Below, in pieces: positions 12,420 through 33,187 of a stretch of DNA of 64,000 nucleotides. How positions within the stretch are numbered: position 1 is the stretch's first letter; each line of letters opens with the position of its first letter. A program made the position numbers and the translations under genes. The stretch is from Acidimicrobiales bacterium (GTDB lineage Bacteria; Actinomycetota; Acidimicrobiia; Acidimicrobiales; SHLQ01): positions 1,534 to 65,533 of the forward strand of contig JAHDEJ010000017.1 of assembly GCA_020628865.1 (NCBI GenBank), in the 5' to 3' direction. A model generated the notes under the pieces. It had not been told where the DNA came from. It worked only from the letters and a program-made list of their open reading frames with translations, and did not search any database.

Positions 12420-12466
12420 GCCAAAAGCTCGGCTCAACTCAGCTGCGGAGTCGCCGATTGGAGCCA

Positions 12467-15925: not shown

Positions 15926-15931
15926 GCGGTC

Positions 15932-16870: not shown

Positions 16871-16879
16871 CGTGCGACG

Positions 16880-17737: not shown

Positions 17738-17748
17738 CCTTGACCCTG

Positions 17749-20110: not shown

Positions 20111-20149
20111 GTCTTCACCGGGTGGCGGCGAGTGCGCCCCGCCGCCTCA

Positions 20150-21193
20150 TCATGCCGCTCGAGATGACTCGTCGACGGCGTATGTCCGAGCCATTGCGGA
20201 CAGCGCTTGACCCTCCGCCGAGTGTTCGCCAACACCGCGGAAGCGGCGAACGAGGGGCCGGATCCGATTCAGCGATCGCGCATTGCGGCTCTCCAGCTCC
20301 AACTGCGTCGTTCGTACCGCCGCGAAGGCGATGGCCTTCTCGCGATGCGAGGAGCTTCGGTGCCGTGGTTCGTAACCAAGGGCGAGCATTTTCGGCCTGC
20401 AGACCGTTTCGATGGCTCGGATCTGCCCGGCATCGAGATGGTCAGCCCAATCGCGCCGCTTGGTCGGTCGTTCTCGGAGTCGGGCGTGTGCGTCGCCGTC
20501 GGTTCTCGAACCGAGCGTCGCAACTCGGCCGTTCTGGTACTGGAGCATCGATGCCTCGAATGGGAGGTCGACGAGTGCGCAGATCCGCCGGAGGCTGCGT
20601 TCCGGGTCGTTCGTGAGATCTCGGTAGCCGATCTCCAGGAATCGGTGCTCGCCGAGCGCGCGAGCCCGTTGCGCTCCGCGGACGCTCAGCGCCCAGTACG
20701 CGGCGGCTCGTGGCGCTGTCCGGTAGCTCCAGTTGGCATCGAGATAGGAGGCCACGACCTCTCGAGGGTCTCGATGGAGGTGGATGAAGACGGCTTCGGG
20801 AAACAGCGTCGACAACCGGTCAACGGCGAACGCGTAGGCCGGAGTCTTGTCTGCCCACCGGGTCTTGCCGACCGACTCGGCGTGGCAGCGGTAGACCACG
20901 CGCAGAGCATCCGCGAGCGTCTCGGGTGCGGAGTCGTCGAGCGCAGCACGAACGGTGGCGCGCTCGATGTAGAACGACCAGAACCGGGTATCGCCGAACA
21001 ACTCGTCTTCGAAGGCTGCACGGTCGAAGCGGCCATCCCGAACGAAGCGGTCACGCCGTCGAGCGAGCTGATCGAGAAGATAGGTCTCACCCGGAATCGC
21101 CATGGCCGAATGGCTGTCGAGCATCGCTCGAAGAAGCGTGGTGCCCGAACGGCCGGCGCCGATGATGAAGGGAAACGGAGCGTCCGTAGTCAT
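20150..21193 (-). CDS. PAPS-dependent sulfotransferase family protein
   Basis: The 5'-PSB loop is PFIIGAGRSGTTLL and the 3'-PB region is FIHLHRDPREVVAS. It is the last gene of the co-directional glycan cluster, and its start overlaps the PGT stop. Confidence 0.75.
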   Translation of the reverse strand: MTTDAPFPFIIGAGRSGTTLLRAMLDSHSAMAIPGETYLLDQLARRRDRFVRDGRFDRAAFEDELFGDTRFWSFYIERATVRAALDDSAPETLADALRVVYRCHAESVGKTRWADKTPAYAFAVDRLSTLFPEAVFIHLHRDPREVVASYLDANWSYRTAPRAAAYWALSVRGAQRARALGEHRFLEIGYRDLTNDPERSLRRICALVDLPFEASMLQYQNGRVATLGSRTDGDAHARLRERPTKRRDWADHLDAGQIRAIETVCRPKMLALGYEPRHRSSSHREKAIAFAAVRTTQLELESRNARSLNRIRPLVRRFRGVGEHSAEGQALSAMARTYAVDESSRAA

Positions 21194-22521
21194 CGCCCGA
21201 GACCTCCGGCGACCTCGCGCAGGGTTCGGCCGACGATGCGGAGGTCGAAGGTGATCGACTGTCGCCGCAGATAGTAGAAGTCGTACTGCAGCTTCTCGAG
21301 TGCGTCGGTCTCGGACGAGGTGTAGCCGAGCTTGACCTGGGCCCAGCCGGTGAGCCCCGGACGCACGATGTGGCGTTCGTCGTAGAAGGGGATCTTGGTC
21401 CGGAGCTCCTCGACGTAGGCCGTCTGCTCGGGCCGGGGACCGACGATCGACAGTTGACCGCGCAGGACGTTGATCGCCTGCGGGAGCTCGTCGACGTGCA
21501 GGCGGCGGAGCAGGTTGCCGAACGACGTCACCCGGGGGTCGTGGTCTTCAGTCCAGACCTGATCGTCGGTGCCTTCGCGCATCGTCCGGAACTTGAGCAT
21601 GGTGAACGCAACGCCGTGCTTGCCGATGCGTTCCTGTCGAAACAGCAGCGGTCCACGGTTCCCGGCCAGATTGGCGATGAGGATGAGCGGCGTGAGAACG
21701 ACGAGTGCGGCACAGCAGAGCAGGCCGAACGCAATGTCCATCACTCGCTTCGCTCTGCCGTAGCTGACGCGATGCAGTTCTCCAATGTCGAAGAGCATGG
21801 AGACTTGTGCAAGTTCGCTCAGTGGAAGCTTCCCGAGCCATTCCTCGTAGAAGAGCGACAAGGTGCGAACTCTGATCCCGGCGCGGTGGGCAGTTGCCAC
21901 CTGCTCGACGACCGTGTCGTCATTCTGCGCAGCGCGATCCAGCACGATCACGGTCGGGTCGAGGACCTCGAGGCTCTCGGCCACCGGAGAGCCTCCATCG
22001 CTCCGGATCCTTGCGTCTTCGACGTCGATCACGCCCACGACAACTGCGTTCACCTCGACGCGCTGCTCGAGGTCGGCACGGAGTGCAGCGACGTCCTGTG
22101 GACGGTCGGTGATGACGAGCACGCGGTCCCGTCGGGTGGACCATCGCTCCACATCGACTGCGACGTTCCAGACGAGCAGCGACCACAGCGGCACGATCGA
22201 AGCGATCAGAAGCAGCGACGACCGGGGAAGCAGAGATGCGGCGAGCATCAGCTGCAGCAGGGACAGCCCGGCGATTCCCACGGCGACCGCGCCACTGCTT
22301 CGCAAGAACGCCTCGGTGCGAGAACGGGGGTGCTCAGGGAGGCCGAGGCTGTATCCACCGACGACGACAAGTCCGGCGAGCAACACCCACCAGCCGGCCG
22401 ACGACACATCGCTGTTGCCATAGCGGGCCGGCCCGAACACCTCGACGTAGGCGATGCGCGATGCGCCGATCGTGACGAGGACTCCGAGCGCCTGGAGGGC
22501 GTGTACGACACTCCGTTTCAT
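21190..22521 (-). CDS. polyprenyl-phosphate glycosyl-1-phosphate transferase (WbaP/EpsB-type bacterial sugar transferase), initiating enzyme
   Basis: N-terminal TM helices and a linker domain are followed by a C-terminal catalytic core: KRVMDIAFG, LLFRQERIGKHG, LKFRTM, DELPQ and IVGPRP. Confidence 0.85.
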   Translation of the reverse strand: MKRSVVHALQALGVLVTIGASRIAYVEVFGPARYGNSDVSSAGWWVLLAGLVVVGGYSLGLPEHPRSRTEAFLRSSGAVAVGIAGLSLLQLMLAASLLPRSSLLLIASIVPLWSLLVWNVAVDVERWSTRRDRVLVITDRPQDVAALRADLEQRVEVNAVVVGVIDVEDARIRSDGGSPVAESLEVLDPTVIVLDRAAQNDDTVVEQVATAHRAGIRVRTLSLFYEEWLGKLPLSELAQVSMLFDIGELHRVSYGRAKRVMDIAFGLLCCAALVVLTPLILIANLAGNRGPLLFRQERIGKHGVAFTMLKFRTMREGTDDQVWTEDHDPRVTSFGNLLRRLHVDELPQAINVLRGQLSIVGPRPEQTAYVEELRTKIPFYDERHIVRPGLTGWAQVKLGYTSSETDALEKLQYDFYYLRRQSITFDLRIVGRTLREVAGGLGR

Positions 22522-23813
22522 GGCTGGCCGATCGCTTGCGGGTCGATGGAAGCGTTCGCTGAGTCATCCGTCGCCGGACCGTCTTGACGGGAGACGGCGT
22601 GCAACACGAAGACCAGCAGAAGGAGTTGCCCGGCGACCATCGCTCCGCTGTAGGCCCAGACGGTCTGCAGCGGCCCCCAACTTTTCGCTTCCGCCAGAGC
22701 GAATGCGGCGAGTACCAGCACGAAGCGAGCGATGTTGCGGACGAGTTCGGTGCGCTGGCGATCGGTGATCCACATGACGCTTGCGACCGGTGCGACCACG
22801 ATGCTTGCGCCGATGGCCGGGAGAAGCGCGCGGGCGTAGTCGCCGGCAGCGTCCCATTCGGCGCCGAAGACGAGTGGCACCAGGGACGGCGCCAGGAACA
22901 TCCCGAGGCCGCACGCCGGGATGGCGGCCGCAGCGAGGCCGGCAACCGTGCGACGAGTGAGGGATGCGAGCTCTGCGGCGTCGGTGCGGGCCAGGGCACC
23001 ACCGCGATGCAGAAACGCCTGGTGAAGACTGTCGGTGAGAAGGTTGGCCGGGAGCACGGTGATGCGATACGCAAGGTAGAACGCGCCGGCACTCGCCTGA
23101 CCGAACAGGGCGAGGAGTGCGATCGTCGGGAGCTCGAGTGCGCCTCGATTGAACAGCGCGGACCACACGCTGAAGAGTGGGAAGCGTCGGTATCGGCGTA
23201 GCTGCTCCTTCATCGTCGAACCCGATGCCTGGGTGGTCGACGGGCTCGTCGAGAGCAGGAGTGATGCGGCGACGTATCCGATGAGGGGTCCGAGAGCGAG
23301 GCCGAGTCCGCCGAGGCCGAGAGGCGCCAAAGCGAGCTGCGTGATCGCGGTCCCGACGCCGAGCGCGACTCGAGCGCGGCCGGCCGTGGCGAACTGATCG
23401 TGTCGAACAGCCAGATGTGTCCGGATGTTGAAAGCCCCGATTGCGAGGGCCGAGGGTGCCAACAACCATGCGGTCACGCCGAGCGGCGTGATGAGGAAGC
23501 TGTCGTTGGCGGCAGCGACGACGGCCAGTATGAGCATTGCGATGGCGACGACCGACACGTCCGCAAGGCGTGCCACCGCCACGGCATCCTCGTCCGAGGA
23601 CGGCAGCGGAATCGCGAGTTCGAGGCGGAGTGTCGCAACGAGCCCGAGAATTGCAGCAGTTGCGAAGAACGCGCCAAAGAGCCCGAATGCCTCCGGCGAA
23701 TACCATCGCGTCAGGATGGGCGCGGCCGCAAGCAGCGCGACCTGTCCGAGCGCGGCGCCTGAGGCGACCGTCGCAGCACGTCGCAGAAGCCCGTTGGGGC
23801 GGTCACCGTTCAC
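22518..23813 (-). CDS. MOP/Wzx-type polysaccharide flippase
   Basis: GTG 23813 overlaps the AsnB stop (GTGA). The product is about 430 aa, with roughly 12 predicted TM helices and a LLRRAATVASGAALGQV...LTRWYSPEAFG N-terminus typical of Wzx. Confidence 0.7.
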   Translation of the reverse strand: MNGDRPNGLLRRAATVASGAALGQVALLAAAPILTRWYSPEAFGLFGAFFATAAILGLVATLRLELAIPLPSSDEDAVAVARLADVSVVAIAMLILAVVAAANDSFLITPLGVTAWLLAPSALAIGAFNIRTHLAVRHDQFATAGRARVALGVGTAITQLALAPLGLGGLGLALGPLIGYVAASLLLSTSPSTTQASGSTMKEQLRRYRRFPLFSVWSALFNRGALELPTIALLALFGQASAGAFYLAYRITVLPANLLTDSLHQAFLHRGGALARTDAAELASLTRRTVAGLAAAAIPACGLGMFLAPSLVPLVFGAEWDAAGDYARALLPAIGASIVVAPVASVMWITDRQRTELVRNIARFVLVLAAFALAEAKSWGPLQTVWAYSGAMVAGQLLLLVFVLHAVSRQDGPATDDSANASIDPQAIGQP

Positions 23814-25624
23814 GGCAGTTCGAGTCCGTACACGTCGATGAAGCGACTGATGCTGAGGCGGACCCACGGGTTGATCGCCGAGGCGTTTTCGCCATGGAGC
23901 ACGCCGAGCTCGACGAGATGTGCGGTCGCAGCGTCGATCTGTTCGACCAACTTCGATTGTGCCAGCCACGTGTCGGTCGGAACGTCGAATGCGGACTTCT
24001 CTCTCCGCCACAGGACCTCGTCGGGAACGCGCCCCTGCATGGACCGTCGCAGCTGATGCTTGGTCCAGCCGACGGTCGCCCCGTTGGCCCAGTTCGACCG
24101 AAGGCCGATTTCCACCATTTCGGGGTCGAGGAAGGGAAGTCGCACTTCTCGACTCCACGCCATCGAGTTGCGGTCGGCGTACCGAAGCAGGCGCGGCAGA
24201 ATCGAGCGGTCGAGGTCGCCGACGCGGCCACGTTGAAGCGGGCCGGTTGCGGCGGTTGAACCGATGGGGTCGTCGGGCATGGCTGTGTGGAGAGCGGGAC
24301 CGAGAATCGCAGCTCGTCGGCGCCTGAGGACGTCCAACAGGAGACCGCGGACGTGGTCATTGACGAGGTAGCCGAGGATCTTGGAGCTTGCGCCATCTCG
24401 CACGTTCCGACGTCCGTGGGACGACCGCAGTGCCGATGTCACCGTGACAAGGTGTCCGTCGCGTGCTGCTTGGAGCAACGCGAGGGTCGAGTGCTTTGCG
24501 TAACCACCCCACGTCTCGTCAGCTCCTTGCCCATCCAGAAGCACGGTGACGCCAGCGGCGGCCGCCGCCTGCATGACGCACCATTGTGCGTAGACCGAGG
24601 GCATGTCGAACGGTGCACCCTGATGGCGGATCAGGTCGTCGAGGTCGCCGAGAAACCCATCCACGGAAGGTTCGACACGGTGCAGGTCCACATCGAAACG
24701 GTCGGCGACCAGCGCCGCTCGGTCGTACTCGTCCCCGGGATGTCCGGGGAAGGAGGCCGTGAATGCGACGAGCGAGCGGTCGGGATCGACGGCCCGGATG
24801 GAGGCGACGATGGAAGCGCTGTCGACACCGCCGGAAAGGCTGGTGCCGACGGAGACGTCGCTTCGGAGTCGAAGCGCGACCGCACGTTCGAGCGCGGCCT
24901 GGACGTCAGCGTCCGACGCCGGCGCCGACGTGCGGGTCTCGTCGAGAAGATCGGCGGTGGACCAGTACGGCTGCGCAACTCGCCCGTTGTGGTCGAGGTG
25001 CACGATGTGTCCGGGAGGGATGAGTTCGATCCCGTCGAACCACGTTCGGGTGCCCGGGTCGGTGTCTCCGTAGACCAGCAGGCCGGCGAGTGCGTTGGTG
25101 TCAAGGCGTCCCGAACCCACGCCGGCGGCACGAAGTGCGGCCGGTTCGGACGCAAACCACCACGCACCTGACTTGTCCTGGCCGATGTGGAGGGGCTTCT
25201 CCCCGAAGCGATCGCGAGCGAGGGTCACCCCCGACCGAGCGGGGTCGAGCACGGCCACGGCCCACATGCCGTTGCAGCGTCGGAAGACGTCCTCTCCCCA
25301 CTCGACCCAGCCGTGGAGGAGTACTTCGGTGTCGCCGCTCGTCTCGAAGCGATGGCCGAGCTGTTCGAGCTCGACGCGGAGTTCGCGGTAGTTGTAGATC
25401 TCGCCGTTGAAGACGATCCGCACCCCGCCAGGGTGGGTCATCGGTTGATCAGAGCGTTCGTCGAGGTCCAGGATCGACAGCCGACGGAATCCCAACCATC
25501 CGGTTGGGCCCCATGAATCGCCCTCGGCATCGGGGCCCCGATGGCGAAGGGACTCGAGCGCGGCGGCGCGTCGTTCCGGCGGAGGCGCGTTCCTCAGGCC
25601 GATCGTGCCGATGAAGCCGCACAT
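23810..25624 (-). CDS. asparagine synthase (glutamine-hydrolysing)-like amidotransferase (AsnB/WbpS-like)
   Basis: The start is set at MCGFIG (a class II GATase needs Cys2). The PP-loop SLSGGVDS is present, and the product is about 604 aa. Confidence 0.9.
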   Translation of the reverse strand: MCGFIGTIGLRNAPPPERRAAALESLRHRGPDAEGDSWGPTGWLGFRRLSILDLDERSDQPMTHPGGVRIVFNGEIYNYRELRVELEQLGHRFETSGDTEVLLHGWVEWGEDVFRRCNGMWAVAVLDPARSGVTLARDRFGEKPLHIGQDKSGAWWFASEPAALRAAGVGSGRLDTNALAGLLVYGDTDPGTRTWFDGIELIPPGHIVHLDHNGRVAQPYWSTADLLDETRTSAPASDADVQAALERAVALRLRSDVSVGTSLSGGVDSASIVASIRAVDPDRSLVAFTASFPGHPGDEYDRAALVADRFDVDLHRVEPSVDGFLGDLDDLIRHQGAPFDMPSVYAQWCVMQAAAAAGVTVLLDGQGADETWGGYAKHSTLALLQAARDGHLVTVTSALRSSHGRRNVRDGASSKILGYLVNDHVRGLLLDVLRRRRAAILGPALHTAMPDDPIGSTAATGPLQRGRVGDLDRSILPRLLRYADRNSMAWSREVRLPFLDPEMVEIGLRSNWANGATVGWTKHQLRRSMQGRVPDEVLWRREKSAFDVPTDTWLAQSKLVEQIDAATAHLVELGVLHGENASAINPWVRLSISRFIDVYGLELP

Positions 25625-25625
25625 G

Positions 25626-26708
25626 TCAGACCGGCCGCAGGGCCCGATCGAGACGCTGGGTGACCTCGTCGACATCCTCGAGGGACATCAGGGGGTCCAT
25701 CGGCAGTGAGAGGATCTCTTGGGCCGCGGTCTCTGCGCCGGGACACGTTGGTGTCGATGTGGCGAGCCAGGGCTGAAGGGAGAGCGGTACGGGGTAGTGG
25801 ATGCCGGTGGCAACCTTTGCGTCCGCAAGGTGCTGCTGCACGGCATCGCGGTCGTCGAAACGGGCGACGAGAAGGTGGTGGACGGCGCCATCGTTCCACG
25901 GCACGAGTCGGTCGCCGATGAGCGACCGGTAGTGCTCGGCCACGGCGACGCGTGCGGCCGTCCACTCCGGGAGATGGCGGAGTTTGACGTCGAGAATGGC
26001 CGCCTGAATGCCATCGAGACGTGAGCAGTAACCGACGACATCGTGGGTGTACTTGCTCGTCCGACCGTGGTCCCGGATGCGTTGGACTTCTTCGACCACT
26101 GCTTCGTCGGCGGAGATCACCATTCCGCCGTCGCCGAAGGCGCCGAGGTTCTTGCCCGGGTAGAAGCTGAAGCATGCCGCGTGGCCGATCGATCCGACGG
26201 GATGCTGCTCCGTCGTGCCGAGGTGGGCCTGTGCTGCGTCCTCGATGACGATGAGCCCCTCCTCTCGCCAGTGGCGAAGGTGCACGGCCGGCACGATGTG
26301 GCCATACAGGTGGACGGGGAGTACGGCCCGGGTGTTGGCTGTGCGAACCGCATCGACGGTTTCGGGGGTGAGGAGGAGTGTCACTGGATCGACATCGGCG
26401 ACGACCGGTGTGCCGCCGGCGTGCACGACGGCCTCGGCGGTGGCGATGAACGTCATGGCCGGGACGATGACCTCATCACCGGAAGAGATCCCGAGTGCTT
26501 TCAGCGCAAGGGTGAGTGCGTCGGTGCCCGAGCCACACCCGGCCCCCGAACCCGTGTGATGGGCTGCACCGAAACGTTCTTCGAAGCCGGCGATGGCGTT
26601 CTTGCCGACGAAGGCACCACGCTCGATGGTCGAACGAATGGCCTCTTGCACCTCATCATCGATGGATCGATGGAGGCGTTGCAGGTCGAGGAAGGGGATG
26701 TTGTTCAC
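25626..26708 (-). CDS. DegT/DnrJ/EryC1/StrS-family sugar aminotransferase (WbpE/GnnB-like)
   Basis: GTG 26708 overlaps the acetyltransferase stop. Motifs are GSGTDAL, DAAQAHG-like IEDAAQAH, and FSFYPGKNLGAFGDGG (PLP lysine). Confidence 0.9.
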   Translation of the reverse strand: MNNIPFLDLQRLHRSIDDEVQEAIRSTIERGAFVGKNAIAGFEERFGAAHHTGSGAGCGSGTDALTLALKALGISSGDEVIVPAMTFIATAEAVVHAGGTPVVADVDPVTLLLTPETVDAVRTANTRAVLPVHLYGHIVPAVHLRHWREEGLIVIEDAAQAHLGTTEQHPVGSIGHAACFSFYPGKNLGAFGDGGMVISADEAVVEEVQRIRDHGRTSKYTHDVVGYCSRLDGIQAAILDVKLRHLPEWTAARVAVAEHYRSLIGDRLVPWNDGAVHHLLVARFDDRDAVQQHLADAKVATGIHYPVPLSLQPWLATSTPTCPGAETAAQEILSLPMDPLMSLEDVDEVTQRLDRALRPV

Positions 26709-27277
26709 AGCGATGTTCCTGGGTTTCCGACGATGACCGATCCGGCCGGCACGTCTTTGGTTACGACAGCGCCGGCGCCGATGAGTGCGCCTTCGCCGAT
26801 TTCGATTCCCGGCAGCAGCACGCTGCCGGCACCAACGGTGGCGCCCGCCCGAAGCGTGACGCCGGTGAGGTTCTCTTTCGTGTCTTCGCGATTGGGGAAC
26901 TTGGCGTTCGTGACGATGACGCCGGGGCCGAGCCACACGCCGTCCTCGAGGACGCTCAGTTCCGGCACGAAGCAGCGACTGTGCAGTCGGACGCCATCGC
27001 CCAACGTCACCGTGTGTTCCACCACGGTGTGGCTGCCCACGGACACGTTCCGGCCGAACCGGCAGTGCTCGCGCACGAGCGTGCCGTGGCCGAGATGCAG
27101 TCCGTCGCCGAAACTGCTGCCGCGGTACACGACGGCGTGGCTCCGGCAGATGGCCGAGCCGTCGAAGGTCGGTGTGTCGAGCTTGGGTTGGTCGATGCCG
27201 ACGACCGCGTAGGGGCCAAGTTCGAGGCCGTCGTGGTCGGCGAGCTCGTCGGCGAAGATCGCGGTGGCGTGCTTCAT
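26705..27277 (-). CDS. left-handed beta-helix (hexapeptide) sugar N-acetyltransferase (WbpD-like)
   Basis: The start is at MKHATAIF (ATGA overlap with the upstream stop). Hexapeptide repeats run throughout, ending GAGAVVTKDVPAGSVIVGNPG. Confidence 0.8.
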   Translation of the reverse strand: MKHATAIFADELADHDGLELGPYAVVGIDQPKLDTPTFDGSAICRSHAVVYRGSSFGDGLHLGHGTLVREHCRFGRNVSVGSHTVVEHTVTLGDGVRLHSRCFVPELSVLEDGVWLGPGVIVTNAKFPNREDTKENLTGVTLRAGATVGAGSVLLPGIEIGEGALIGAGAVVTKDVPAGSVIVGNPGTSL

Positions 27278-28329
27278 GCGGCGATCGCCACGTCGGTCGG
27301 GCCCCGGTCGATCGAGACGGGCCGTCCACCGTCCTGCGCAGACGCGTCGATCGCGGCGAGAACCTGGACGACTTCGAGGCCGTGTCGGCCGTCGGTCGGT
27401 ACCGGTTCTCCGCCGGCGGCGGCGACGCCGAAGGCGTTGATCTCGGCGCGGAGCGGTTCGACCATCGGCACGCGGGGAATCGAGATGTCGCCGGCTCGGG
27501 TGCGCCACTGGAAGTCACCGAGGGACTCGTATTCGCCGAGTGTTGAGTCGCGGGCGACGCCGCTGTCGACCATCCAAAGGGGCTGGTCGGCGCTGACGTC
27601 GTTGTAGATCGCCATCTTCTCGTCGCCGACGACGGTCATCAGTCGGGTCTTGCGAGGGTCGATCCAGCTGACGTGAAGGTTGGCGCCGATGCCGGATGGG
27701 TACGTGAGGCTGGCGAAACAGACGTCGTCGATGCCCTGCTGAATGAACGAGAACCCCTTCGCCGTGACCTCGACGGGTGTTTCACCGAGCAGATGGTTCA
27801 TGATCGAGATGTCGTGCGGGGCGAAGTTCCACAACGCGTTCGTGTCCCGACGGATGCGTCCGAGTGACAGGCGCTGCGAGTAGAGGTACTGAACGGCCCC
27901 GAGTTCGCGGGTGTCGATCCAGTTCTTCAGGTGCTTGACCGGATTCGAGTAGAGGAACGTGTGGCCGACCATGAGCAGCAGCCCCCTGGAGTCGGCCTCA
28001 TCGACGAGTTCCTGTGCGTGCGCAACCGTCTCGGACAGCGGCTTTTCGACCATCAGGTGCCGGTTGGCCCGGAGCACGTCCATGCCGAGTCCATGGTGTG
28101 TGCTGGCCGGTGTGGCGAGCACGACGGCTTCGACTCGCTCATCGGCGAGCACCTGATCGAGATTGCTCCAGACGTCGGCGTCCGGGTGGTTCTGGGCCAG
28201 GACGGCCTGCCGATCGGGGTCCGGGTCGCACACACCGACGAGGTGGGTGGAGTCTGCACCGGCGACGTTGCGGGCGAGGTTGACGCCCCAGTAGCCGTAG
28301 CCGATCACGGCGGTTCCGATGGTGGTCAT
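27274..28329 (-). CDS. Gfo/Idh/MocA NAD-dependent sugar oxidoreductase (WbpB/GnnA-like)
   Basis: The start is at MTTIGTAVIGYGYWG (Rossmann motif). The EKP motif (MVEKPLS) is present, and the start overlaps the GT2 stop. Confidence 0.85.
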   Translation of the reverse strand: MTTIGTAVIGYGYWGVNLARNVAGADSTHLVGVCDPDPDRQAVLAQNHPDADVWSNLDQVLADERVEAVVLATPASTHHGLGMDVLRANRHLMVEKPLSETVAHAQELVDEADSRGLLLMVGHTFLYSNPVKHLKNWIDTRELGAVQYLYSQRLSLGRIRRDTNALWNFAPHDISIMNHLLGETPVEVTAKGFSFIQQGIDDVCFASLTYPSGIGANLHVSWIDPRKTRLMTVVGDEKMAIYNDVSADQPLWMVDSGVARDSTLGEYESLGDFQWRTRAGDISIPRVPMVEPLRAEINAFGVAAAGGEPVPTDGRHGLEVVQVLAAIDASAQDGGRPVSIDRGPTDVAIAA

Positions 28330-29369
28330 GAGCGGTTCCTTCGGTTTGGGCGGAGACACATTTGGACGACTGACGTGAGTACGCCGGCGCCCCAGCTGAG
28401 ATGCATGGTGGGGAACGCTGCGGCGAGCGTGCGCGGGTTCACGGGCGCCGGATGCTCGGCGGCCGCCTTTCGGGTGGCCGCAGCGGTGAGGAGGCCGTAT
28501 GCCGTGACGTTCGTGGCGACGAGAAGTCGTCCCCATCGGCGGGTGGAAAGGAACGGGCTGAGTGCCACGAACCCGGCGAAGGCTGGGGCGACCAGGTGGC
28601 GCGGCTTCACATCGCCGGGGTGCTGCGCGGCCACGTGGGCCTTCCAGCGGCCGTAGTGCCAGAACTGGCGTCGAAGTGCATGGAGGTCGGGCCTCGGTCG
28701 GTAGATCGATTCGATCGAAGGGTCGAAGACGAGCCGGTGACCGGCCTGCCGGAGGCGAATGTTGATCTCGTAGTCGGAGTTGCGAGCGAGCGATTCGTCG
28801 AAGCCGCCGATGTCGACGAGCGTCTGACGCCAGTAGGCGGGGTGGCTGATGGTGTCGACCTCGCATCGTTCGGTGGCGAAACGATGTCCCGAGGCCATGC
28901 CGAACGGGGAGACCATGGCCGCGCCAACCGCCGTGGATTCGGGAGTGGTGCCGATGTGCAGGTAGCGGCCGCCGACACCGGCGGCGCCCGTCTCGGTGAG
29001 AACCTTCACGGAGCGGCTGACGTAGTCGGTTTCTGGCACGCCGTGCGAGGAGAAGAGGAAGACGATGTCGCCGCGGCCCTGGTGCGCGCCGATGTTGAAG
29101 GCAGCCGCCGCAGACCCGACCGGGTTGTCGACGACGCGGATCCAGTGTTCGTTGGCGGCTCGCTCGTCCACGTACTCGCGGGAGCCGTCGGTCGAGCCAC
29201 CGTCGATGACGAGAACTTCGAGTCGGTCGAGCGGATAGTCCTGCGCCTCGAAGGACGCGAGGCAGTGCTCGATCGCACCGAGTTCGTTCAACATCGGTAC
29301 GGCGATCGTCACCATCGGGTCGCTCTCGGCAGCGACCGCGGTGTCATCGACATGATCACGCGGGTTCAT
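28326..29369 (-). CDS. family-2 glycosyltransferase (non-processive type)
   Basis: Motifs are VTIAVPMLNE, VLVIDGGSTDGS and a DxD-like region. There is no QxxRW motif, and the C-terminal segment is hydrophobic. Confidence 0.85.
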   Translation of the reverse strand: MNPRDHVDDTAVAAESDPMVTIAVPMLNELGAIEHCLASFEAQDYPLDRLEVLVIDGGSTDGSREYVDERAANEHWIRVVDNPVGSAAAAFNIGAHQGRGDIVFLFSSHGVPETDYVSRSVKVLTETGAAGVGGRYLHIGTTPESTAVGAAMVSPFGMASGHRFATERCEVDTISHPAYWRQTLVDIGGFDESLARNSDYEINIRLRQAGHRLVFDPSIESIYRPRPDLHALRRQFWHYGRWKAHVAAQHPGDVKPRHLVAPAFAGFVALSPFLSTRRWGRLLVATNVTAYGLLTAAATRKAAAEHPAPVNPRTLAAAFPTMHLSWGAGVLTSVVQMCLRPNRRNRS

Positions 29370-29389
29370 CGGGTGCCGATCGGCAAAAA

Positions 29390-30757
29390 TCAGCTGGTTG
29401 TGAGCGGCGCAGCCACGCCCAGACGTTCGAGAATTCGGTCGCCGATGCTGAAGGCGTCGACTTCGTCCGGCCAGTCAGTTCGACGAGCGGAGGCGAGGAT
29501 GCCTCGGGGGTCGTGACGACCCGAGCGATGGTCGTTGATGGCCTCGATCGAAGCGCCGATTCGCTCCGGGGCGACGAGCGCATCGGCGACGCGCACGTGG
29601 GTCGCGTTGCTCGGAAGATCGGCAGTGAGGGTGACGGTGTCGTCGGCACGCATGGACTCGGTGATTGCCGAACCGAGCGCCTCGCGAATCCATGTTTCGA
29701 ATCGTTGCGCCTGGGCTGCATCGGGGAGCACGTAGGTGAGTTGCGGGACCATCGCCGGCCGGGTGTCGGCGGTGAATGGGCAATCGAGGTGGTGGAGCAG
29801 AGCGAGCGGGTCGTTGATGACCGCCTGGTGCGTGCGGCTCGGGTCGACGTCGAGGTCGGCCTTCTGCCCCATCGACGAGACGACGACGACGTTGCGGTCG
29901 GTGCGTTCGGCGTGCTGCACGAGACGGCCGACGATGCGATCGGTGGCCCGCATCGCGAACGGCAGTTCGTCCGCATGTTCGGCGATCCACTCGTCGCCGT
30001 ACGGGTGCTCGGACCAGTCTTCGGGGAACGATGCCGCCCAGTATCGATGCATGGCGCTGGCCACGTGGTTCGTGAACAGGATGCTGAGGTCGGTGTCGTG
30101 TCGTTCGATCTGGCGGAGGAACACGTCGGCCATGAGGAGGGACTGGCCGACCCGGAGGCGCTCCTTGTTCCAGCGTCGGGTACCGACGGCGGCGGCGAGG
30201 CGGGCGAGTTCGAGCCAGGTCGCCGGAGTGACGCCGTGTCTGGCGAAGCCGAGCACGCCGCGCAGGTCGTTGGGGGAGAGGCGCGCCGACGCCACTCGTG
30301 CGGACTGTCGGGAGAGGCGTAGGTTGAGTTCCTGCAGCGGCTGCAAGGCCGCCGGTCGGGTCTCGGGGTCGCCGGAGAAGACGTCCGGGATCACGAACGA
30401 ATGGTTGGGCGAGGCGCACCGCTCGCTGATGGGGGAGGTGTGGAGCGCCCCGACGAGGCCGACGGTTCGACCCGCTTCGGCCGCCCGCTGCCAGTAGAAG
30501 GGATGCTCGTCCGGTTTGGGGTCGCCGTACCAGAACACGCCGTGGTCTTCCCACGGCACCCCCATGCCGACCGAGGCCCAACTCTGGGAGGGGTAGAGAT
30601 CGCGGGGCAGGTCTTCGTGGAGCAGCGTGTCGACCACTTGCCCCCGTTGCGCGAGTTGCCAGAGCGCGGAGCGCGGGTGTTGCTGCCCCCACCATGAGAG
30701 AACCCGGGGAGGAAGCTCATTGACCTCGAGAACGATCAGTCGCTCCATCGCTCCCAA
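29390..30757 (-). CDS. alkaline-phosphatase-superfamily-like protein (phosphodiesterase/phosphotransferase/sulfatase fold), function unknown
   Basis: LYPSQSWASVGMGVPWEDHGVF resembles the nucleophile loop of AlkP/NPP enzymes (P-T/S-x-T/S...T-G-x-x-P-x-x-H-G). The N-terminal strand IVLEVNELP has N where the family usually has a metal-binding D. Confidence 0.45.
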   Translation of the reverse strand: MGAMERLIVLEVNELPPRVLSWWGQQHPRSALWQLAQRGQVVDTLLHEDLPRDLYPSQSWASVGMGVPWEDHGVFWYGDPKPDEHPFYWQRAAEAGRTVGLVGALHTSPISERCASPNHSFVIPDVFSGDPETRPAALQPLQELNLRLSRQSARVASARLSPNDLRGVLGFARHGVTPATWLELARLAAAVGTRRWNKERLRVGQSLLMADVFLRQIERHDTDLSILFTNHVASAMHRYWAASFPEDWSEHPYGDEWIAEHADELPFAMRATDRIVGRLVQHAERTDRNVVVVSSMGQKADLDVDPSRTHQAVINDPLALLHHLDCPFTADTRPAMVPQLTYVLPDAAQAQRFETWIREALGSAITESMRADDTVTLTADLPSNATHVRVADALVAPERIGASIEAINDHRSGRHDPRGILASARRTDWPDEVDAFSIGDRILERLGVAAPLTTS

Positions 30758-30797
30758 TCGGCTGGACTCGACGATTCCTGAACCTGTGGCCGTTGGG

Positions 30798-32501
30798 TCA
30801 GCCCACCGGTCGACGGACGAATCGGATCACCTGGACGTCGAGGAAGCCCAGCTCGTCGACGATCTCGGTCGCCGCCCATCCGGGAAACTCCGCGGTGATC
30901 TGCTCCTTGCCGATCCAGTGGAACTCGGTCGCCTCGGTGCTGCCGAGCAACTCGGCCAGTTCGGTCCGGTCGGGTGCATAGGGTGCGCTCAGCCAGGATC
31001 GGCCGTTGGACAGCTCGCCGAATTCGCGGGCCTTGAACGGGCTTCGCCAGACGACGATGTCGTCCGGATCGGTGAGTTGTGCGATGCGTTCGCCGGCGTC
31101 GCCGATCTCGTTCGTACGAATGGCGGTCCACGTCGCGCCGAGCAGCGACACGACAACGGACAGTGCCACGACGATGCGCAGCGCAATCGGTGAGCGGGCG
31201 GCGAGCCAGACCAGACCCATCACGGTCAACGTGAGGCCGGAGGTGAGGATGTACCGGCCGCCCCATTGCGGAAACGCGCCGGCAGCGAAGGCGGTGGCGG
31301 CGACCACGGGAAGGGGCCCGACGCCGAGGATTCCGACGAGCCACCAGCGCTCCTTCATCATGCCGGCGAGTCCGAAAAGTGCGGCCGGACCGGCGACTGC
31401 GAGTCCGGGCACGAACCCGAGTCCGAGGTAGACGAAGAGGATCGCCCAGACGGTCCACGCGGAAACCATCGCCTTCGCCAGAGCCGCAGGCGGCGCGCCC
31501 GAGCCTCGGGCGAGTGACAGCGCAAATGTGGCGGTCGTGAGGAGAATGGCGGCACTCAGAATCCAGGAGATCGGCGAGGTCGACGACATGGTGAACACCG
31601 TCGTCCCGAGAATCGAAAGGACCCGATCGGCGGCGTCCGTGCCCGCCGAGCCCAGCGTGGATGCACCCCGGGAGGCACGTGCGCTGCCACCGAGTACGAC
31701 GATTTCGAGGGCCGTGTGCAGACCGAGCGGCACGAGTGCCGCCGCGGCCATGAGCGCGCCGCGACCGATGGCGGCGACGGCACGCCGTTGAACGAGGAGG
31801 GCGCCGACGAGCGCCACTCCGGCGACGAAGCCGTAGACGAGCGCCTCCTGCCGCATCGTTGCCGCCAGGCCGTAGCCCAGTCCGGCAATCACCGCCGCGC
31901 GGGCCGGAGCTCGATCGGTCACGGCATCGAGTACGCCGACGAGGCCGATGGTCATCAGTGCGAGGCCCCACGAGTGTTCCCACACGTCGAGCGCGTAGAT
32001 CAGCGCGGGCGACGCCAGCCCGATCGTCCAGATGGACAGGGTTCCGTCATCGGTGGGCCGAAGCCGGCGATGCAACGCTCCGGCGGCGAGGGCGGCGGCG
32101 ATCGAACCGAGCATCGGGATGAGCAGAATGGCTCGGGGACCACCGACAGCCCACAGCGGCCGGGCCACGTAGATCATCGTCAGCGATGTCGTGTTCACCC
32201 ATGTTCCATTCTCCGTTTGGGCGGTGTGGGCGAAGGGGTGGAAGCGACCGGTGGGGTCTGCGGAATCGAACCAGTAGCCGATGTCCGGGTCCCAGTCGCC
32301 GCGTTCGACCATGGCGTCGATGCTGACGGTCTTGCCGCCGACGTCGGTCGACAGGTGACCGCGTGGGTCGATCGCAAGCGATACGAGGCCGTAGATGAGG
32401 AGAAGTGTGACGGCGATCGGTCTGGGCCGCCGGTACCAGGCCCGGGCGTCGGTGGACGCGACGGGCTCCGCTTCCGGGCGCGGCTCGACCATTGTGTCCA
32501 T
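30798..32501 (-). CDS. large polytopic membrane protein, GT-C-fold-like (ArnT/PMT/DUF2029-type glycosyltransferase or polymerase/ligase-like), with a C-terminal soluble domain
   Basis: This 567-aa ORF has about 11-13 predicted TM helices and an acidic first loop (AIDPRGHLSTDVGG...DWDPD). It is the first gene of the co-directional glycan cluster. The call rests on topology only. Confidence 0.55.
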   Translation of the reverse strand: MDTMVEPRPEAEPVASTDARAWYRRPRPIAVTLLLIYGLVSLAIDPRGHLSTDVGGKTVSIDAMVERGDWDPDIGYWFDSADPTGRFHPFAHTAQTENGTWVNTTSLTMIYVARPLWAVGGPRAILLIPMLGSIAAALAAGALHRRLRPTDDGTLSIWTIGLASPALIYALDVWEHSWGLALMTIGLVGVLDAVTDRAPARAAVIAGLGYGLAATMRQEALVYGFVAGVALVGALLVQRRAVAAIGRGALMAAAALVPLGLHTALEIVVLGGSARASRGASTLGSAGTDAADRVLSILGTTVFTMSSTSPISWILSAAILLTTATFALSLARGSGAPPAALAKAMVSAWTVWAILFVYLGLGFVPGLAVAGPAALFGLAGMMKERWWLVGILGVGPLPVVAATAFAAGAFPQWGGRYILTSGLTLTVMGLVWLAARSPIALRIVVALSVVVSLLGATWTAIRTNEIGDAGERIAQLTDPDDIVVWRSPFKAREFGELSNGRSWLSAPYAPDRTELAELLGSTEATEFHWIGKEQITAEFPGWAATEIVDELGFLDVQVIRFVRRPVG

Positions 32502-32545
32502 GCGGTCTCTTCGGTCGAAACCCCCGCGTGGTTAGGCGGTCGGCG

Positions 32546-33187
32546 TCAGGCCCGGTCCAGCCAGGCAAGAACGGCGAGCACTCTGCGGTGGTCGGCGGCG
32601 CTGGGTTCGAGGTTCAGTTTGGAGAAGATCGACGACGTGTGCTTCTCCACCGCGCCGGAGCTCACGGAGAGCTGCGCCGCGATGGCGGCGTTGGTGTAAC
32701 CCTGGGCCATGAGCGACAGCACGTCGGACTCTCGGGGTGTGAGGGAGTCGATCGGGTTGCGGCGACGGGCGAACAGCTGGCTGACGACCTCCGGGTCGAG
32801 GGCCGTTCCGCCGGCAGCGACGCGCTGGACGGCATCGATGAACTCGCCGACGTCCGCAATCCGCTCCTTCAACAGGTAGCCGATGCCGCCATTGCCGTCC
32901 GCCAACAGTTCCGAGGCGTACTGCTCTTCCACGTACTGCGACAGGACGAGAATCCTGGCGTCCGGATGGTTGGCCCGAAGCTCGATGGAGGCCTTGATGC
33001 CTTCGTCGGTGTGGGTGGGTGGCATGCGCACGTCGACGATGCTGATGTCGGGCCGGGTTCGCTCCCACTCGCGCAGGAACGCGTCGGCATCGCCCGCCTC
33101 GCCGACCATCTCCATGTCCTCGTCTTCGAGGAGCCGGCCGAGGCCGGCGCGGAGGAGAACGGAGTCTTCGACGACGAGTACGCGCAT
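32546..33187 (-). CDS. NarL/LuxR-family response regulator
   Basis: The start is at MRVLVVEDS (TGATG overlap with the kinase stop). The receiver has D at VDVRMP and K at the YLLK site, and the C-terminal LuxR HTH is LTPRESDVLSLMAQGYTNAAIA. Confidence 0.9.
   Translation of the reverse strand: MRVLVVEDSVLLRAGLGRLLEDEDMEMVGEAGDADAFLREWERTRPDISIVDVRMPPTHTDEGIKASIELRANHPDARILVLSQYVEEQYASELLADGNGGIGYLLKERIADVGEFIDAVQRVAAGGTALDPEVVSQLFARRRNPIDSLTPRESDVLSLMAQGYTNAAIAAQLSVSSGAVEKHTSSIFSKLNLEPSAADHRRVLAVLAWLDRA

What the first reader, a model, noticed from the sequence alone, without database searches (positions are those of the whole stretch)
20150..32501. Ten-gene co-directional glycan cluster with the logic of lipid-linked assembly, flipping and transfer, but no Wzy/Wzz
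All genes are on the minus strand and six junctions are 4-nt overlaps. In order they encode a GT-C-like 567-aa membrane protein, an AlkP-superfamily-like protein and a GT2. A Gfo/Idh/MocA oxidoreductase, an LbH acetyltransferase, a DegT aminotransferase and an AsnB-like amidotransferase come next. A Wzx flippase, the initiating phosphoglycosyl transferase and a sulfotransferase complete the set. With only one initiating and one elongating GT, the product should be a short unit. I see no chain-length regulator, no obvious Wzy and no ABC exporter. The gene set comprises a PGT, few GTs, a flippase and a large GT-C-like protein. That set also fits en bloc glycosylation of a protein or lipid acceptor by an oligosaccharyltransferase or ligase. 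A hyper-Thr-rich exported protein is encoded 11 kb away (43367..45562).
Basis: partly seen in the sequence, partly recalled or inferred. Interest (0 to 1): 0.7.

Follow-up and report, generated by a model that had tools for sequence, protein, structure and literature searches.

The report
Variable surface-glycan operon with unnamed GT-C
This is a real ten-gene operon for building a short sugar unit on a membrane lipid carrier in an uncultured Acidimicrobiia bacterium; its first gene belongs to an unnamed membrane glycosyltransferase family found across that class, which probably carries out the last step outside the cell, though onto what target is unknown.

Summary
There are ten co-directional minus-strand genes at 20150-32501, and six junctions are ATGA/GTGA overlaps. 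Eight gene assignments are confirmed by Pfam or NCBIfam. The two genes with no Pfam match were resolved by AlphaFold2 (pLDDT 93.7 each) plus Foldseek. The 567-aa protein (G10) has a GT-C fold closest to ArnT, STT3 and DPY19. The 452-aa protein has an alkaline-phosphatase-superfamily fold of the NPP/PhnA type.

G10 is not a member of STT3/PglB. It matches no Pfam Wzy or O-antigen-ligase family. I found no Wzy, Wzz or LCP candidate in the window.

Homologues place the organism in Acidimicrobiia. G10 relatives were found in 190 species genomes. In 40 of 44 loci with enough flank, a WbaP-type phosphoglycosyl transferase lies within 10 kb downstream. The genes in between vary from genome to genome. 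In a close relative, G10, the AlkP-like gene, Wzx and the distal genes have diverged or been replaced, while the housekeeping flanks are 95-98% identical.

My best reading is that G10 takes the flipped lipid-linked glycan and transfers it to an unknown acceptor. Polymerase and single-sugar side-chain roles remain open. I found no support for a link to the Thr-rich protein. Interest is moderate.

The parts
30798..32501 (-). G10: a 567-aa, roughly 13-helix membrane protein with a GT-C fold and a ~90-aa C-terminal alpha/beta domain. It belongs to an unnamed family found across Acidimicrobiia.
   Evidence: The window protein has no Pfam hit. It scores 63.8 bits against NCBIfam LA_3751/LA_3752, below the cutoff of 200. 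The AlphaFold2 model has pLDDT 93.7. Top Foldseek PDB matches are STT3, ArnT, AglB, DPY19, ALG3/9, PimE, AftB and PglB. Invariant residues include D53, K57, D82, E175, H176, R217, R275, R278 and R416.
29390..30748 (-). AlkP-superfamily-fold protein of the NPP/PhnA branch, 452 aa. It has no signal peptide or membrane helix, and its metal-ligand motif looks divergent. Function unknown.
   Evidence: The window protein has no Pfam hit, but some homologues carry PF01663. The AlphaFold2 model has pLDDT 93.7. Foldseek matches phosphonoacetate hydrolase and NPP/ENPP at E about 1e-9. Reading from the sequence, SSMGQ sits where NPPs have the SDHGM motif; the NPP motif is recalled from memory, so this is an inference.
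28326..29369 (-). Soluble or peripheral GT2 glycosyltransferase, 347 aa, probably the single elongating transferase.
   Evidence: PF00535 scores 70.7 bits. The best PDB sequence matches are PcManGT (6yv7) and PglI (9jma), with no GtrB, DPMS or ArnC match. No hydrophobic helix was found.
27274..28329 (-). Gfo/Idh/MocA oxidoreductase, likely a nucleotide-sugar 3-dehydrogenase.
   Evidence: PF01408 matches. NCBIfam UDP-GlcNAc 3-dehydrogenase scores 133.8 bits, below its cutoff. PDB entry 7bvj matches at 1.6e-18, and entries 3q2k/3q2i at 1e-10 to 1e-13. I recall 7bvj as GnnA and 3q2k/3q2i as WlbA; those identities are from memory.
26705..27277 (-). Left-handed beta-helix N-acetyltransferase, of the type that acetylates a sugar 3-amino group.
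   Evidence: Hexapep matches. The best PDB matches are QdtC at 1e-36, a WxcM-like protein, and 3mqg at 2.6e-17, which I recall from memory as WlbB.
25626..26708 (-). DegT-family PLP aminotransferase, of the sugar C-3 type.
   Evidence: PF01041 scores 303.6 bits. The best named sugar-aminotransferase matches in PDB are 2oga (which I recall as DesV), QdtB and WbpE, at 1e-61 to 1e-70. The top-scoring entry, 7b0d, is annotated as a glutamine-scyllo-inositol transaminase.
23810..25624 (-). AsnB-like glutamine-dependent amidotransferase, 604 aa from the MCGFIG start.
   Evidence: Asn_synthase scores 202.8 bits with GATase_7 also present. TIGR01536 scores 352 bits, above its cutoff. The start codon was chosen.
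22518..23813 (-). MOP-superfamily (Wzx-like) flippase, 431 aa, with about 12 hydrophobic segments.
   Evidence: PF13440 scores 57.9 bits against a cutoff of 23. NCBIfam MOP flippase also matches. Hydropathy is shown.
21190..22521 (-). Large WbaP/WcaJ-type polyprenyl-phosphate phosphoglycosyl transferase, 443 aa.
   Evidence: PF02397 scores 189 bits. TIGR03025 scores 278 bits against a cutoff of 295.55. It has four N-terminal hydrophobic segments plus one at residue 263.
20150..21193 (-). PAPS-type sulfotransferase, 347 aa, with a GAGRSGTT loop.
   Evidence: PF13469 scores 138 bits. PDB matches are the CurM sulfotransferase and protein-tyrosine sulfotransferases, at 1e-13 to 1e-9.
32546..34440 (-). 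Two-component pair directly upstream on the same strand: a HisKA_3 sensor kinase (33187-34440) and a LuxR-type response regulator (32546-33187). A 44-nt gap separates it from G10. It is a possible regulator and is not shown to belong to the operon.
   Evidence: Translation is. The equivalent genes in L081 carry the Pfam domains Sensor, HisKA_3, Response_reg and GerE. A kinase/regulator pair also lies near G10 in many other Acidimicrobiia loci.

Best explanation
This is a strain-variable locus for a cell-envelope glycan, assembled on a lipid carrier and flipped by a Wzx-type flippase, in an Acidimicrobiia bacterium.

Shown:
- Ten translationally coupled genes.
- A WbaP-type phosphoglycosyl transferase (g2), a single soluble GT2 (g8) and a MOP/Wzx flippase (g3).
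- A three-enzyme module (g7, g5, g6) of the 3-dehydrogenase, C-3 aminotransferase and 3-N-acetyltransferase type.
- An AsnB-like amidotransferase, a PAPS-type sulfotransferase and a protein with an AlkP-superfamily fold.
- A GT-C-fold membrane enzyme (G10) of an unnamed family. Across the class it is syntenic with the phosphoglycosyl transferase.

Inferred:
1. g7, g5 and g6 make a UDP-2,3-diacetamido-2,3-dideoxyhexose.
2. g2 loads a sugar phosphate onto undecaprenyl phosphate.
3. g8 adds one sugar, giving a short unit that is probably a disaccharide. This unit may be amidated, sulfated or otherwise tailored by g4, g1 and g9.
4. g3 flips the unit across the membrane.
5. G10, whose conserved polar residues fall in the predicted outer loops, uses the flipped lipid-linked unit as donor and transfers it to an acceptor shared across strains. 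In that sense it acts as a ligase.

The acceptor could be a wall polymer, a lipid or a protein. It is not identified.
For: - Operon structure.
- Family assignments.
- G10 has a GT-C fold with a high-confidence model.
- Conserved synteny: 40 of 44 related loci with at least 8 kb of downstream sequence have a g2-like phosphoglycosyl transferase within 10 kb of G10. The median distance is 3.4 kb, and 34 are on the same strand.
- The intervening genes vary: GT2, GT4, methyltransferases and MOP flippases.
- No Pfam-recognisable Wzy or O-antigen ligase was seen among the recurrent multi-spanning families that I scanned in those loci.
- No GtrB/ArnC/DPMS-like GT2 is encoded in the cluster, so the phosphoglycosyl transferase is the only enzyme there that can make a lipid-linked sugar.
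- G10 co-varies with the cluster. Against L081, the flanks are 95-98% identical at protein level, G10 72%, the AlkP-like protein 79% and Wzx 44%, and the distal genes are replaced. Against L062, the flanks are 82-94% identical and G10 42%.
- G10 is much better conserved than typical Wzy polymerases: 35-50% identity across a class, with 31 invariant columns. By the argument in PMC10920833, that pattern fits 'varied donors, one acceptor'.
- There is precedent for en bloc transfer by GT-C enzymes: GT66 oligosaccharyltransferases (PMC10920833) and L. lactis WpsJ (PMC9574508).
Against: - The nearest sequence signal for the family is PMT_2, the ArnT/PMT type. Known members of that type use lipid-monophosphate single-sugar donors (PMC10920833 Table 1).
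- G10 lacks the WWD motif and the large C-terminal domain of the only GT-C_A family known to use diphosphate-linked donors.
- No acceptor has been identified.
- In most genomes uvrA lies between G10 and the phosphoglycosyl transferase, so part of the linkage could simply be inherited gene order.
- The amidotransferase has no obvious carboxyl substrate, because no UDP-sugar 6-dehydrogenase is present in the cluster.
- Everything beyond fold and family is inference. There are no biochemical data for any member of the family.
Confidence: 0.4

Rival explanations
1. G10 is the repeat-unit polymerase, a functional Wzy analogue with a GT-C_A-like fold. It would polymerise the flipped Und-PP-disaccharide into a secondary wall polymer, and an LCP enzyme encoded elsewhere would then attach that polymer.
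For: - The cluster has a phosphoglycosyl transferase and a Wzx flippase but no recognisable Wzy.
- G10 diverges together with the glycan genes in close relatives, as serotype-specific enzymes do.
- Several genomes carry two tandem G10 copies, which could be a polymerase plus a ligase, like the GT-C pair WpsI/WpsJ of L. lactis (PMC9574508).
- Wzy families of clan GT-C3 have a long N-terminal loop and a conserved Asp, His and two Arg (PMC10920833). G10 has a long first loop and invariant D53, H176, R217, R275 and R278.
- PMC10920833 (2024) reports no published BP-Pol (Wzy) structure, so a fold search against solved structures probably cannot detect that clan.
Against: - G10 is far better conserved than polymerases usually are (PMC10920833 discussion).
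- It has the 13-helix architecture plus C-terminal domain of ArnT and the oligosaccharyltransferases.
- It gives no Pfam Wzy, EpsG or Wzy_C hit, even at E <= 1, in 50 homologues.
- No Wzz-like co-polymerase was found in the window.
Confidence: 0.2
2. G10 is the GT-C component of a three- or four-component side-chain glycosylation system of the GtrC, GacL or ArnT kind. A GT2 would make an Und-P-monosaccharide, a Wzx-type flippase would export it, and G10 would add that single sugar to a glycan or other acceptor outside the membrane.
For: - 5 of 50 family members give weak PMT_2 hits.
- ArnT is among the best structural matches (TM-score 0.47 normalised to the target) and has a similar size and architecture.
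- The block conserved with L081 is G10, AlkP-like, GT2, the sugar-nucleotide genes and Wzx. This resembles a GacI/K/L-type module, in which the flippase belongs to the Wzx family (PMC9574508, PMC11127046).
Against: - g8 has no membrane helix.
- g8 has no detectable similarity to the GtrB, ArnC or DPMS polyprenyl-phosphate transferases in NCBIfam or the PDB.
- Across the class, the constant neighbour of G10 is the phosphoglycosyl transferase, not a GtrB-like GT2.
Confidence: 0.25
3. G10 is a housekeeping GT-C that acts on an unrelated substrate, for example a lipoglycan or protein mannosylation. Its place at the head of this operon would then only reflect inherited gene order.
For: In most Acidimicrobiia, G10 sits in a conserved housekeeping run: coaE, uvrB, G10, uvrA ... 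uvrC, rapZ.
Against: - In the window G10 is the first gene of the operon, 49 nt from g9.
- In the closest relative, G10 is much less conserved than the flanks, together with the AlkP-like gene, Wzx and the distal glycan genes. A housekeeping gene would not be expected to behave that way.
Confidence: 0.1

Closest known systems
ArnT / PMT_2-type GT-C enzymes (CAZy GT83, GT39; structural class GT-C_A)
   Same: - About 13 membrane helices, a long first outer loop carrying an invariant Asp, and a small C-terminal outer domain.
- ArnT structures 5f15 and 5ezm are among the best Foldseek matches (E about 3e-5, TM-score 0.47 normalised to the target).
- A few family members give weak PMT_2 hits.
   Different: - The window protein has no Pfam hit.
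- Profile searches against PDB sequences find nothing significant.
- No ArnC/GtrB-like donor synthase is encoded nearby. The conserved partner is a phosphoglycosyl transferase.
STT3 / PglB / AglB oligosaccharyltransferases (GT66), as in the Campylobacter pgl locus
   Same: - The gene-set logic matches: a phosphoglycosyl transferase, few glycosyltransferases, a flippase and a GT-C enzyme, with no polymerase.
- STT3 and AglB are the top structural matches.
- GT66 is the only GT-C_A family known to use lipid-diphosphate oligosaccharide donors (PMC10920833).
   Different: - No PF02516 hit and no WWD motif.
- The C-terminal domain is about 90 aa rather than about 280 aa.
- TM-scores are only 0.38-0.47.
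Lactococcus lactis Wps system (WpsG Wzx-type flippase, WpsI GT-C polymerase, WpsJ GT-C transferase) and streptococcal GacI/J/K/L
   Same: These are Gram-positive systems. A Wzx-family flippase exports a lipid-linked sugar or oligosaccharide, and a GT-C enzyme transfers it onto a wall polymer outside the cell (PMC9574508).
   Different: - Those systems start with a GT2 acting on undecaprenyl monophosphate (WpsA/B, GacI/J), not with a Bac_transf phosphoglycosyl transferase.
- Sequence relatedness to G10 could not be tested here.
Wzx/Wzy-dependent O-antigen and capsule loci; the WbpB/WbpE/WbpD and GnnA/GnnB diacetamido-sugar pathways
   Same: - Variable gene content between conserved flanks, with a phosphoglycosyl transferase and a Wzx flippase.
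- A dehydrogenase, aminotransferase and acetyltransferase trio whose closest solved relatives act at C-3.
- AsnB-like amidotransferases also occur in O-antigen loci that make uronamides. That point comes from established knowledge and was not tested here.
   Different: - No Wzy, Wzz or WaaL.
- No UDP-GlcNAc 6-dehydrogenase or 2-epimerase in the cluster.
- The host is a monoderm actinomycete lineage.

Membership tests
GT-C fold superfamily | A polytopic membrane protein (8-14 helices) with an extracytoplasmic first loop carrying a conserved acidic residue, and structural similarity to solved GT-C enzymes. | tested here: met
   The AlphaFold2 model has pLDDT 93.7 and about 13 helices. Every Foldseek PDB match with E <= 0.01 is a GT-C enzyme. 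D53 is invariant and lies in the loop after helix 1.
STT3/PglB/AglB oligosaccharyltransferase (GT66, PF02516) | A match to the STT3 profile, a WWD(YG) motif, and a large C-terminal acceptor-binding domain. | tested here: not met
   There is no Pfam hit at E <= 0.01, nor at E <= 1 in 50 homologues. The sequence has no WWD motif. The C-terminal domain spans only residues 480-567.
Wzy polymerase / O-antigen ligase / PglL (PF04932 Wzy_C, PF14296, PF14897; GT119-135) | A match to a Wzy, Wzy_C or EpsG profile, or structural similarity to WaaL, WzyE or SEDS proteins. | tested here: not met
   No Pfam hits. None of these proteins appears among the 50 Foldseek matches listed. Caveat: no Wzy of clan GT-C3 has a solved structure (PMC10920833, as of 2024), and the CAZy profiles were not available here.
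ArnT/PMT_2 (PF13231) | A match to the PMT_2 profile above its gathering score of 26.1 bits. | tested here: inconclusive
   The window protein has no hit. 5 of 50 homologues give weak hits (best E 6.4e-5). ArnT is a top structural match.
NCBIfam NF047440, LA_3751/LA_3752 putative glycosyltransferase | A score at or above the curated cutoff of 200 bits. | tested here: not met
   The score is 63.8 bits, E 1.3e-17, over residues 32-456. G10 is a distant relative, not a member.
Three- or four-component extracytoplasmic glycosylation system (GtrA/B/C, GacI-L, ArnC/ArnT) | A GtrB/DPM1/ArnC-type GT2 that charges polyprenyl phosphate, encoded together with the GT-C enzyme and a flippase. | tested here: inconclusive
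   A GT2 and a flippase are both present. However, g8 has no membrane helix and shows no similarity to GtrB, ArnC or DPMS in NCBIfam or among PDB sequences. Its activity was not tested.
Polyprenyl-phosphate phosphoglycosyl transferase (Bac_transf, large WbaP type) | A C-terminal PF02397 domain preceded by N-terminal membrane helices. | tested here: met
   PF02397 scores 189 bits over residues 258-437. There are four N-terminal hydrophobic segments. TIGR03025 scores 278 bits, just under its cutoff of 295.55.
MOP/Wzx flippase | A match to a Polysacc_synt family profile, with about 12 membrane helices. | tested here: met
   PF13440 scores 57.9 bits against a cutoff of 23. There are about 12 hydrophobic segments.
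Alkaline-phosphatase superfamily (NPP/PhnA branch, PF01663) | The AlkP core fold, a nucleophile at a helix N-terminus, and two metal sites with Asp/His ligands. | tested here: inconclusive
   The fold criterion is met: Foldseek E about 1e-9 to PhnA and NPP, and some homologues carry PF01663. S54 is invariant and sits at a helix start. However, SSMGQ appears where NPPs have the SDHGM ligand motif; the NPP motif is recalled from memory, so this is a reading of the sequence. Catalytic competence is unknown.
UDP-2,3-diacetamido-2,3-dideoxy sugar pathway (WbpB/E/D, WlbA/C/B, GnnA/B) | A 3-dehydrogenase, a C-3 aminotransferase and a 3-N-acetyltransferase encoded together. The uronic form also needs a 6-dehydrogenase. 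| tested here: inconclusive
   All three enzyme types are adjacent. Their closest solved relatives include enzymes that act at C-3. All the NCBIfam equivalog scores are below their cutoffs. No 6-dehydrogenase is present in the cluster.

The most novel reading that the evidence does not exclude
G10 may found a new bacterial family of GT-C enzymes, unrelated in sequence to STT3/PglB and to the Wzy_C, WaaL and PglL families. It would take Wzx-flipped, undecaprenyl-diphosphate-linked glycans and transfer them en bloc to a common acceptor (protein, lipid or wall polymer). On this reading it is the general glycan ligase or oligosaccharyltransferase of the class Acidimicrobiia.
Probability: 0.25. Interest if true: 0.8.

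Novelty: new variant of a known kind. Interest (0 to 1): 0.45.

Why it matters
Acidimicrobiia are abundant in soil, water and wastewater (for example Microthrix), but their envelope glycobiology is essentially unstudied.

Among GT-C_A enzymes, only the GT66 oligosaccharyltransferases are known to use diphosphate-linked oligosaccharides (PMC10920833). If G10 completes a pathway that starts with a phosphoglycosyl transferase and passes through a Wzx flippase, it would be a second such family. That would make it a candidate tool for glycoengineering.

The finding also gives a concrete marker for locating the strain-variable surface-glycan locus in these genomes: the G10 and phosphoglycosyl transferase pair, usually around uvrA. 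Such loci are likely targets of phage and immune recognition.

If G10 instead turns out to be an ArnT-like single-sugar transferase, the cluster is an ordinary member of a known class.

Tried and rejected
1. Sequence searches of G10 against PDB chains found nothing usable, with either the single sequence or the 50-sequence profile. The best hit was GPI mannosyltransferase at E 0.66.

2. Pfam on the window G10 gave no hit. Pfam on 50 homologues at E <= 1 gave only weak PMT_2 hits.

3. A consensus scan for sigma-70 promoters and intrinsic terminators over 19000-35000 gave nothing above the shuffled expectation, so I could not set operon boundaries that way.

4. I tested whether S/T-rich proteins co-occur with G10. 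Only 4 ORFs in the 80 related loci are S/T-rich and none is homologous, so I rejected this as evidence for a protein substrate.

5. I looked for a domain fusion that might hint at function. P0306, at 970 aa, has a 412-aa N-terminal extension with no Pfam hit.

6. I first read L062 as a minimal island of G10, phosphoglycosyl transferase and AlkP-like gene. Frame analysis and Pfam then revealed an additional GT1/GT4-like gene and a weak GT2-like gene, so I corrected that reading.

7. I first took the two best-conserved neighbours of G10 for glycan genes. They turned out to be UvrA and UvrB.

8. A literature search for LA_3751 returned nothing.

9. From memory, M. tuberculosis has a GT-C mannosyltransferase (Rv1635c) between uvrB and uvrA. 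This is a lead only. I could not fetch the sequence, so it was not tested.

Full report
**1. The observation**

The window has 64-69% G+C, so spurious ORFs are common. GC3 frame plots and inspection of start codons resolve ten minus-strand genes between 20150 and 32501, none with an internal stop.

Six junctions are ATGA or GTGA 4-nt overlaps: g8/g7, g7/g6, g6/g5, g4/g3, g3/g2 and g2/g1. The remaining gaps are 49, 20 and 1 nt.

There is one correction. The AsnB-like gene most likely starts at 25624, which gives the N-terminus MCGFIG expected of an N-terminal-nucleophile amidotransferase. Base composition inside the cluster does not differ from the flanks.

**2. Gene identities**

Pfam and NCBIfam confirm eight of the ten assignments:
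- Sulfotransfer_3
- Bac_transf, with TIGR03025 just below its cutoff
- Polysacc_synt_3, a MOP flippase
- Asn_synthase plus GATase
- DegT
- Hexapep
- GFO_IDH_MocA
- Glycos_transf_2

Comparison with solved structures sharpens the sugar module.
- The oxidoreductase matches PDB entry 7bvj (1.6e-18) and entries 3q2k/3q2i. I recall these as the UDP-GlcNAc 3-dehydrogenase GnnA and WlbA; the identities are from memory.
- The aminotransferase matches 2oga, QdtB and WbpE at 1e-61 to 1e-70. I recall 2oga as DesV. The top-scoring entry, 7b0d, is annotated as a glutamine-scyllo-inositol transaminase.
- The acetyltransferase matches QdtC and 3mqg. I recall 3mqg as the 3-N-acetyltransferase WlbB.

By analogy with the established WbpB/E/D and GnnA/B pathways, the trio should make a UDP-2,3-diacetamido-2,3-dideoxyhexose. 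This is an inference, because every equivalog score is below its cutoff.

The GT2 has no membrane helix. It resembles elongating transferases (PcManGT, PglI) and not GtrB, ArnC or DPMS. The sulfotransferase has a GAGRSGTT loop, and its closest solved relatives are the CurM sulfotransferase and protein-tyrosine sulfotransferases.

**3. The two genes with no Pfam match**

G10 (567 aa) has no Pfam hit. It scores 63.8 bits, below the 200-bit cutoff, against NCBIfam LA_3751/LA_3752 'putative glycosyltransferase'.

An AlphaFold2 model built on 50 homologues has pLDDT 93.7 and pTM 0.92. It shows about 13 membrane helices, a long first loop (residues 42-106) and a C-terminal alpha/beta domain of about 90 aa.

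Every Foldseek PDB match with E <= 0.01 is a GT-C enzyme: STT3, ArnT, AglB, DPY19, ALG3/9, PimE, AftB and PglB. TM-scores reach 0.47. No WaaL, WzyE or SEDS protein appears among the 50 matches listed.

Invariant polar residues are D53, K57, D82, N103, Y169, E175, H176, R217, E219, R275, R278, W413, R416 and Y417. With the Arg-rich N-terminus placed in the cytoplasm, these fall in the predicted outer loops. That placement is an inference from the helix map.

g9 (452 aa) also has no Pfam hit, although some homologues carry PF01663. Its model has pLDDT 93.7 and matches phosphonoacetate hydrolase and NPP/ENPP enzymes at E about 1e-9. It has no signal peptide or membrane helix. SSMGQ appears where NPPs have the SDHGM metal-ligand motif, as I recall that motif. 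Its chemistry may therefore differ from the canonical enzymes; this is an inference.

**4. What is absent**

Hydropathy screening of all called window proteins, followed by Pfam on the membrane proteins and flank genes, found no Wzy, Wzz or LCP. Not every small soluble ORF was scanned.

The flanks are housekeeping genes. On one side is a PLP-dependent decarboxylase at 18581-20110(+). On the other is a kinase/regulator pair on the same strand as G10, followed by an IMPDH-family gene at 34635-35747(+).

**5. Comparative evidence**

Homologues place the organism in Acidimicrobiia. Relatives of G10 were found in 190 species-representative genomes, almost all from this class. A profile search of 1.84 billion cluster representatives found 449 at E <= 1e-30 and 2778 at E <= 1e-3.

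ORF clustering across 80 loci shows a recurrent order: kinase/regulator, coaE, uvrB, G10 (sometimes duplicated in tandem), uvrA, a phosphoglycosyl transferase, then variable glycosyltransferases, methyltransferases and MOP flippases, then uvrC, rapZ and a cofD-like gene.

In 40 of 44 loci with at least 8 kb of downstream sequence, a g2-like phosphoglycosyl transferase lies within 10 kb of G10, at a median of 3.4 kb. None of the recurrent multi-spanning families that I scanned in those loci matched a Pfam Wzy or ligase family. Extra PMT_2-type GT-C genes do occur.

The window's arrangement keeps the kinase/regulator-to-G10 junction and ends with the phosphoglycosyl transferase. It lacks uvrB and uvrA, and the variable genes sit between G10 and the phosphoglycosyl transferase.

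**6. Mosaic variation in close relatives**

Contig L081 has flanks 95-98% identical in protein to the window. Across the cluster the identities are:

| Gene | Protein identity, window vs L081 |
|---|---|
| G10 | 72% |
| AlkP-like | 79% |
| GT2 | 93% |
| Oxidoreductase | 98% |
| Acetyltransferase | 94% |
| Aminotransferase | 85% |
| Wzx | 44% |

Beyond Wzx the genes are unrelated. Nucleotide identity profiles show the same blocks.

L062 has flanks 82-94% identical but a G10 only 42% identical, and a different set of island genes: a phosphoglycosyl transferase, a GT1/GT4-like gene, an AlkP-like gene and a weak GT2-like gene.

G10 therefore behaves as a component that changes with the glycan, not as a fixed housekeeping gene. 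This ties it functionally to the cluster.

**7. Mechanism and its rivals**

The phosphoglycosyl transferase is the only enzyme in the cluster able to make a lipid-linked sugar. It is also the one constant partner of G10 across the class.

G10 is much better conserved than Wzy polymerases usually are. By the argument of PMC10920833, that fits enzymes that see varied donors but one acceptor. I therefore favour G10 as the outer-face enzyme that takes the flipped lipid-linked short unit and transfers it to a common acceptor (confidence 0.4).

Precedents are the GT66 oligosaccharyltransferases (PMC10920833) and the GT-C enzyme WpsJ of L. lactis, which transfers an oligo- or polysaccharide onto rhamnan (PMC9574508).

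The rivals are:
- **Polymerase (0.2).** Clan GT-C3 Wzy proteins also have a long N-terminal loop with a conserved Asp, His and two Arg, and PMC10920833 (2024) reports no published structure for them.
- **Single-sugar side-chain transferase of the GtrC, GacL or ArnT kind (0.25).** This is favoured by the weak PMT_2 signal and the resemblance to ArnT. It is disfavoured by the lack of a GtrB-like GT2.
- **Unrelated housekeeping GT-C (0.1).**

**8. The Thr-rich protein**

The ORF at 43367-45562(-) is real. It has an N-terminal anchor, a domain of about 400 aa and a Thr/Pro-rich tail of about 300 aa. It lies next to a Ser/Thr kinase, 11 kb from the cluster.

S/T-rich ORFs do not recur near G10 in other genomes. 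It remains a conceivable glycosylation target, but nothing here links it to the cluster.

**9. Verdict**

The 'no Wzy, Wzz or ABC exporter' statement holds for this window.

The oligosaccharyltransferase or ligase reading is plausible but unproven, and membership of the known oligosaccharyltransferase and ligase families fails.

What is new is modest but real. An unannotated GT-C family, found across a class, anchors phosphoglycosyl transferase and Wzx loci that lack a recognisable polymerase or ligase.

Noticed in passing
window 3439-8116 (-): A second, separate glycan system. It comprises a membrane-embedded GT2 of the synthase type (465 aa; Glyco_tranf_2_3 and Glyco_trans_2_3, with about 6 hydrophobic segments), a HEAT-repeat protein (361 aa), and a 733-aa protein ending in a response-regulator receiver domain. 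It looks like a synthase-dependent exopolysaccharide operon under phosphorelay control.
   Followed up: partly
window 40492-45562 (-): A Ser/Thr protein kinase (Pkinase domain within ORF 40492-44940) lies directly downstream of the Thr-rich anchored protein at 43367-45562. In the Thr-rich repeat region, long ORFs stay open in more than one reading frame.
   Followed up: partly
Loci L004-L080 (for example L017, L028, L031, L050): In most Acidimicrobiia the G10 gene lies between uvrB and uvrA, and the variable glycan genes lie between uvrA and uvrC. From memory, and untested here, M. tuberculosis also has a GT-C mannosyltransferase (Rv1635c) between uvrB and uvrA. This hints at an old actinobacterial gene order.
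   Followed up: partly
L001, L008, L013, L015, L016, L020, L046, L053, L057, L066, L076, L079: G10 is duplicated in these genomes, in tandem in most of them (in L079 one gene separates the copies). In several other loci (for example L032, L045, L053, L061, L064) additional PMT_2-type GT-C genes lie beside it.
   Followed up: no
window 26500-29500 compared with L081: The GT2, oxidoreductase and acetyltransferase block is about 90% identical in nucleotides to L081. That is higher than the 81-87% seen in most of the neighbouring housekeeping sequence. G10 is only about 72% identical. The pattern suggests recombination within the locus.
   Followed up: partly
window 14466-15077 (+) and 15176-17920 (-): A 203-aa ORF matches only the first ~87 positions of the 515-position PhoX alkaline-phosphatase profile, so it may be a fragment or a miscalled gene. 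The adjacent 914-aa ORF on the opposite strand has an Exo_endo_phos domain only at its C-terminus and overlaps a well-supported class-IV aminotransferase ORF at 16880-17737 (+).
   Followed up: no
window 12083-14200 (+) and 38610-40490 (+): Two GGDEF-EAL proteins, involved in c-di-GMP turnover, lie on either side of the glycan locus at some distance. The second has about five N-terminal hydrophobic segments.
   Followed up: no
window 54385-57363 (+): A 992-aa UPF0182 family membrane protein (765 bits), a conserved actinobacterial protein of unknown function.
   Followed up: no
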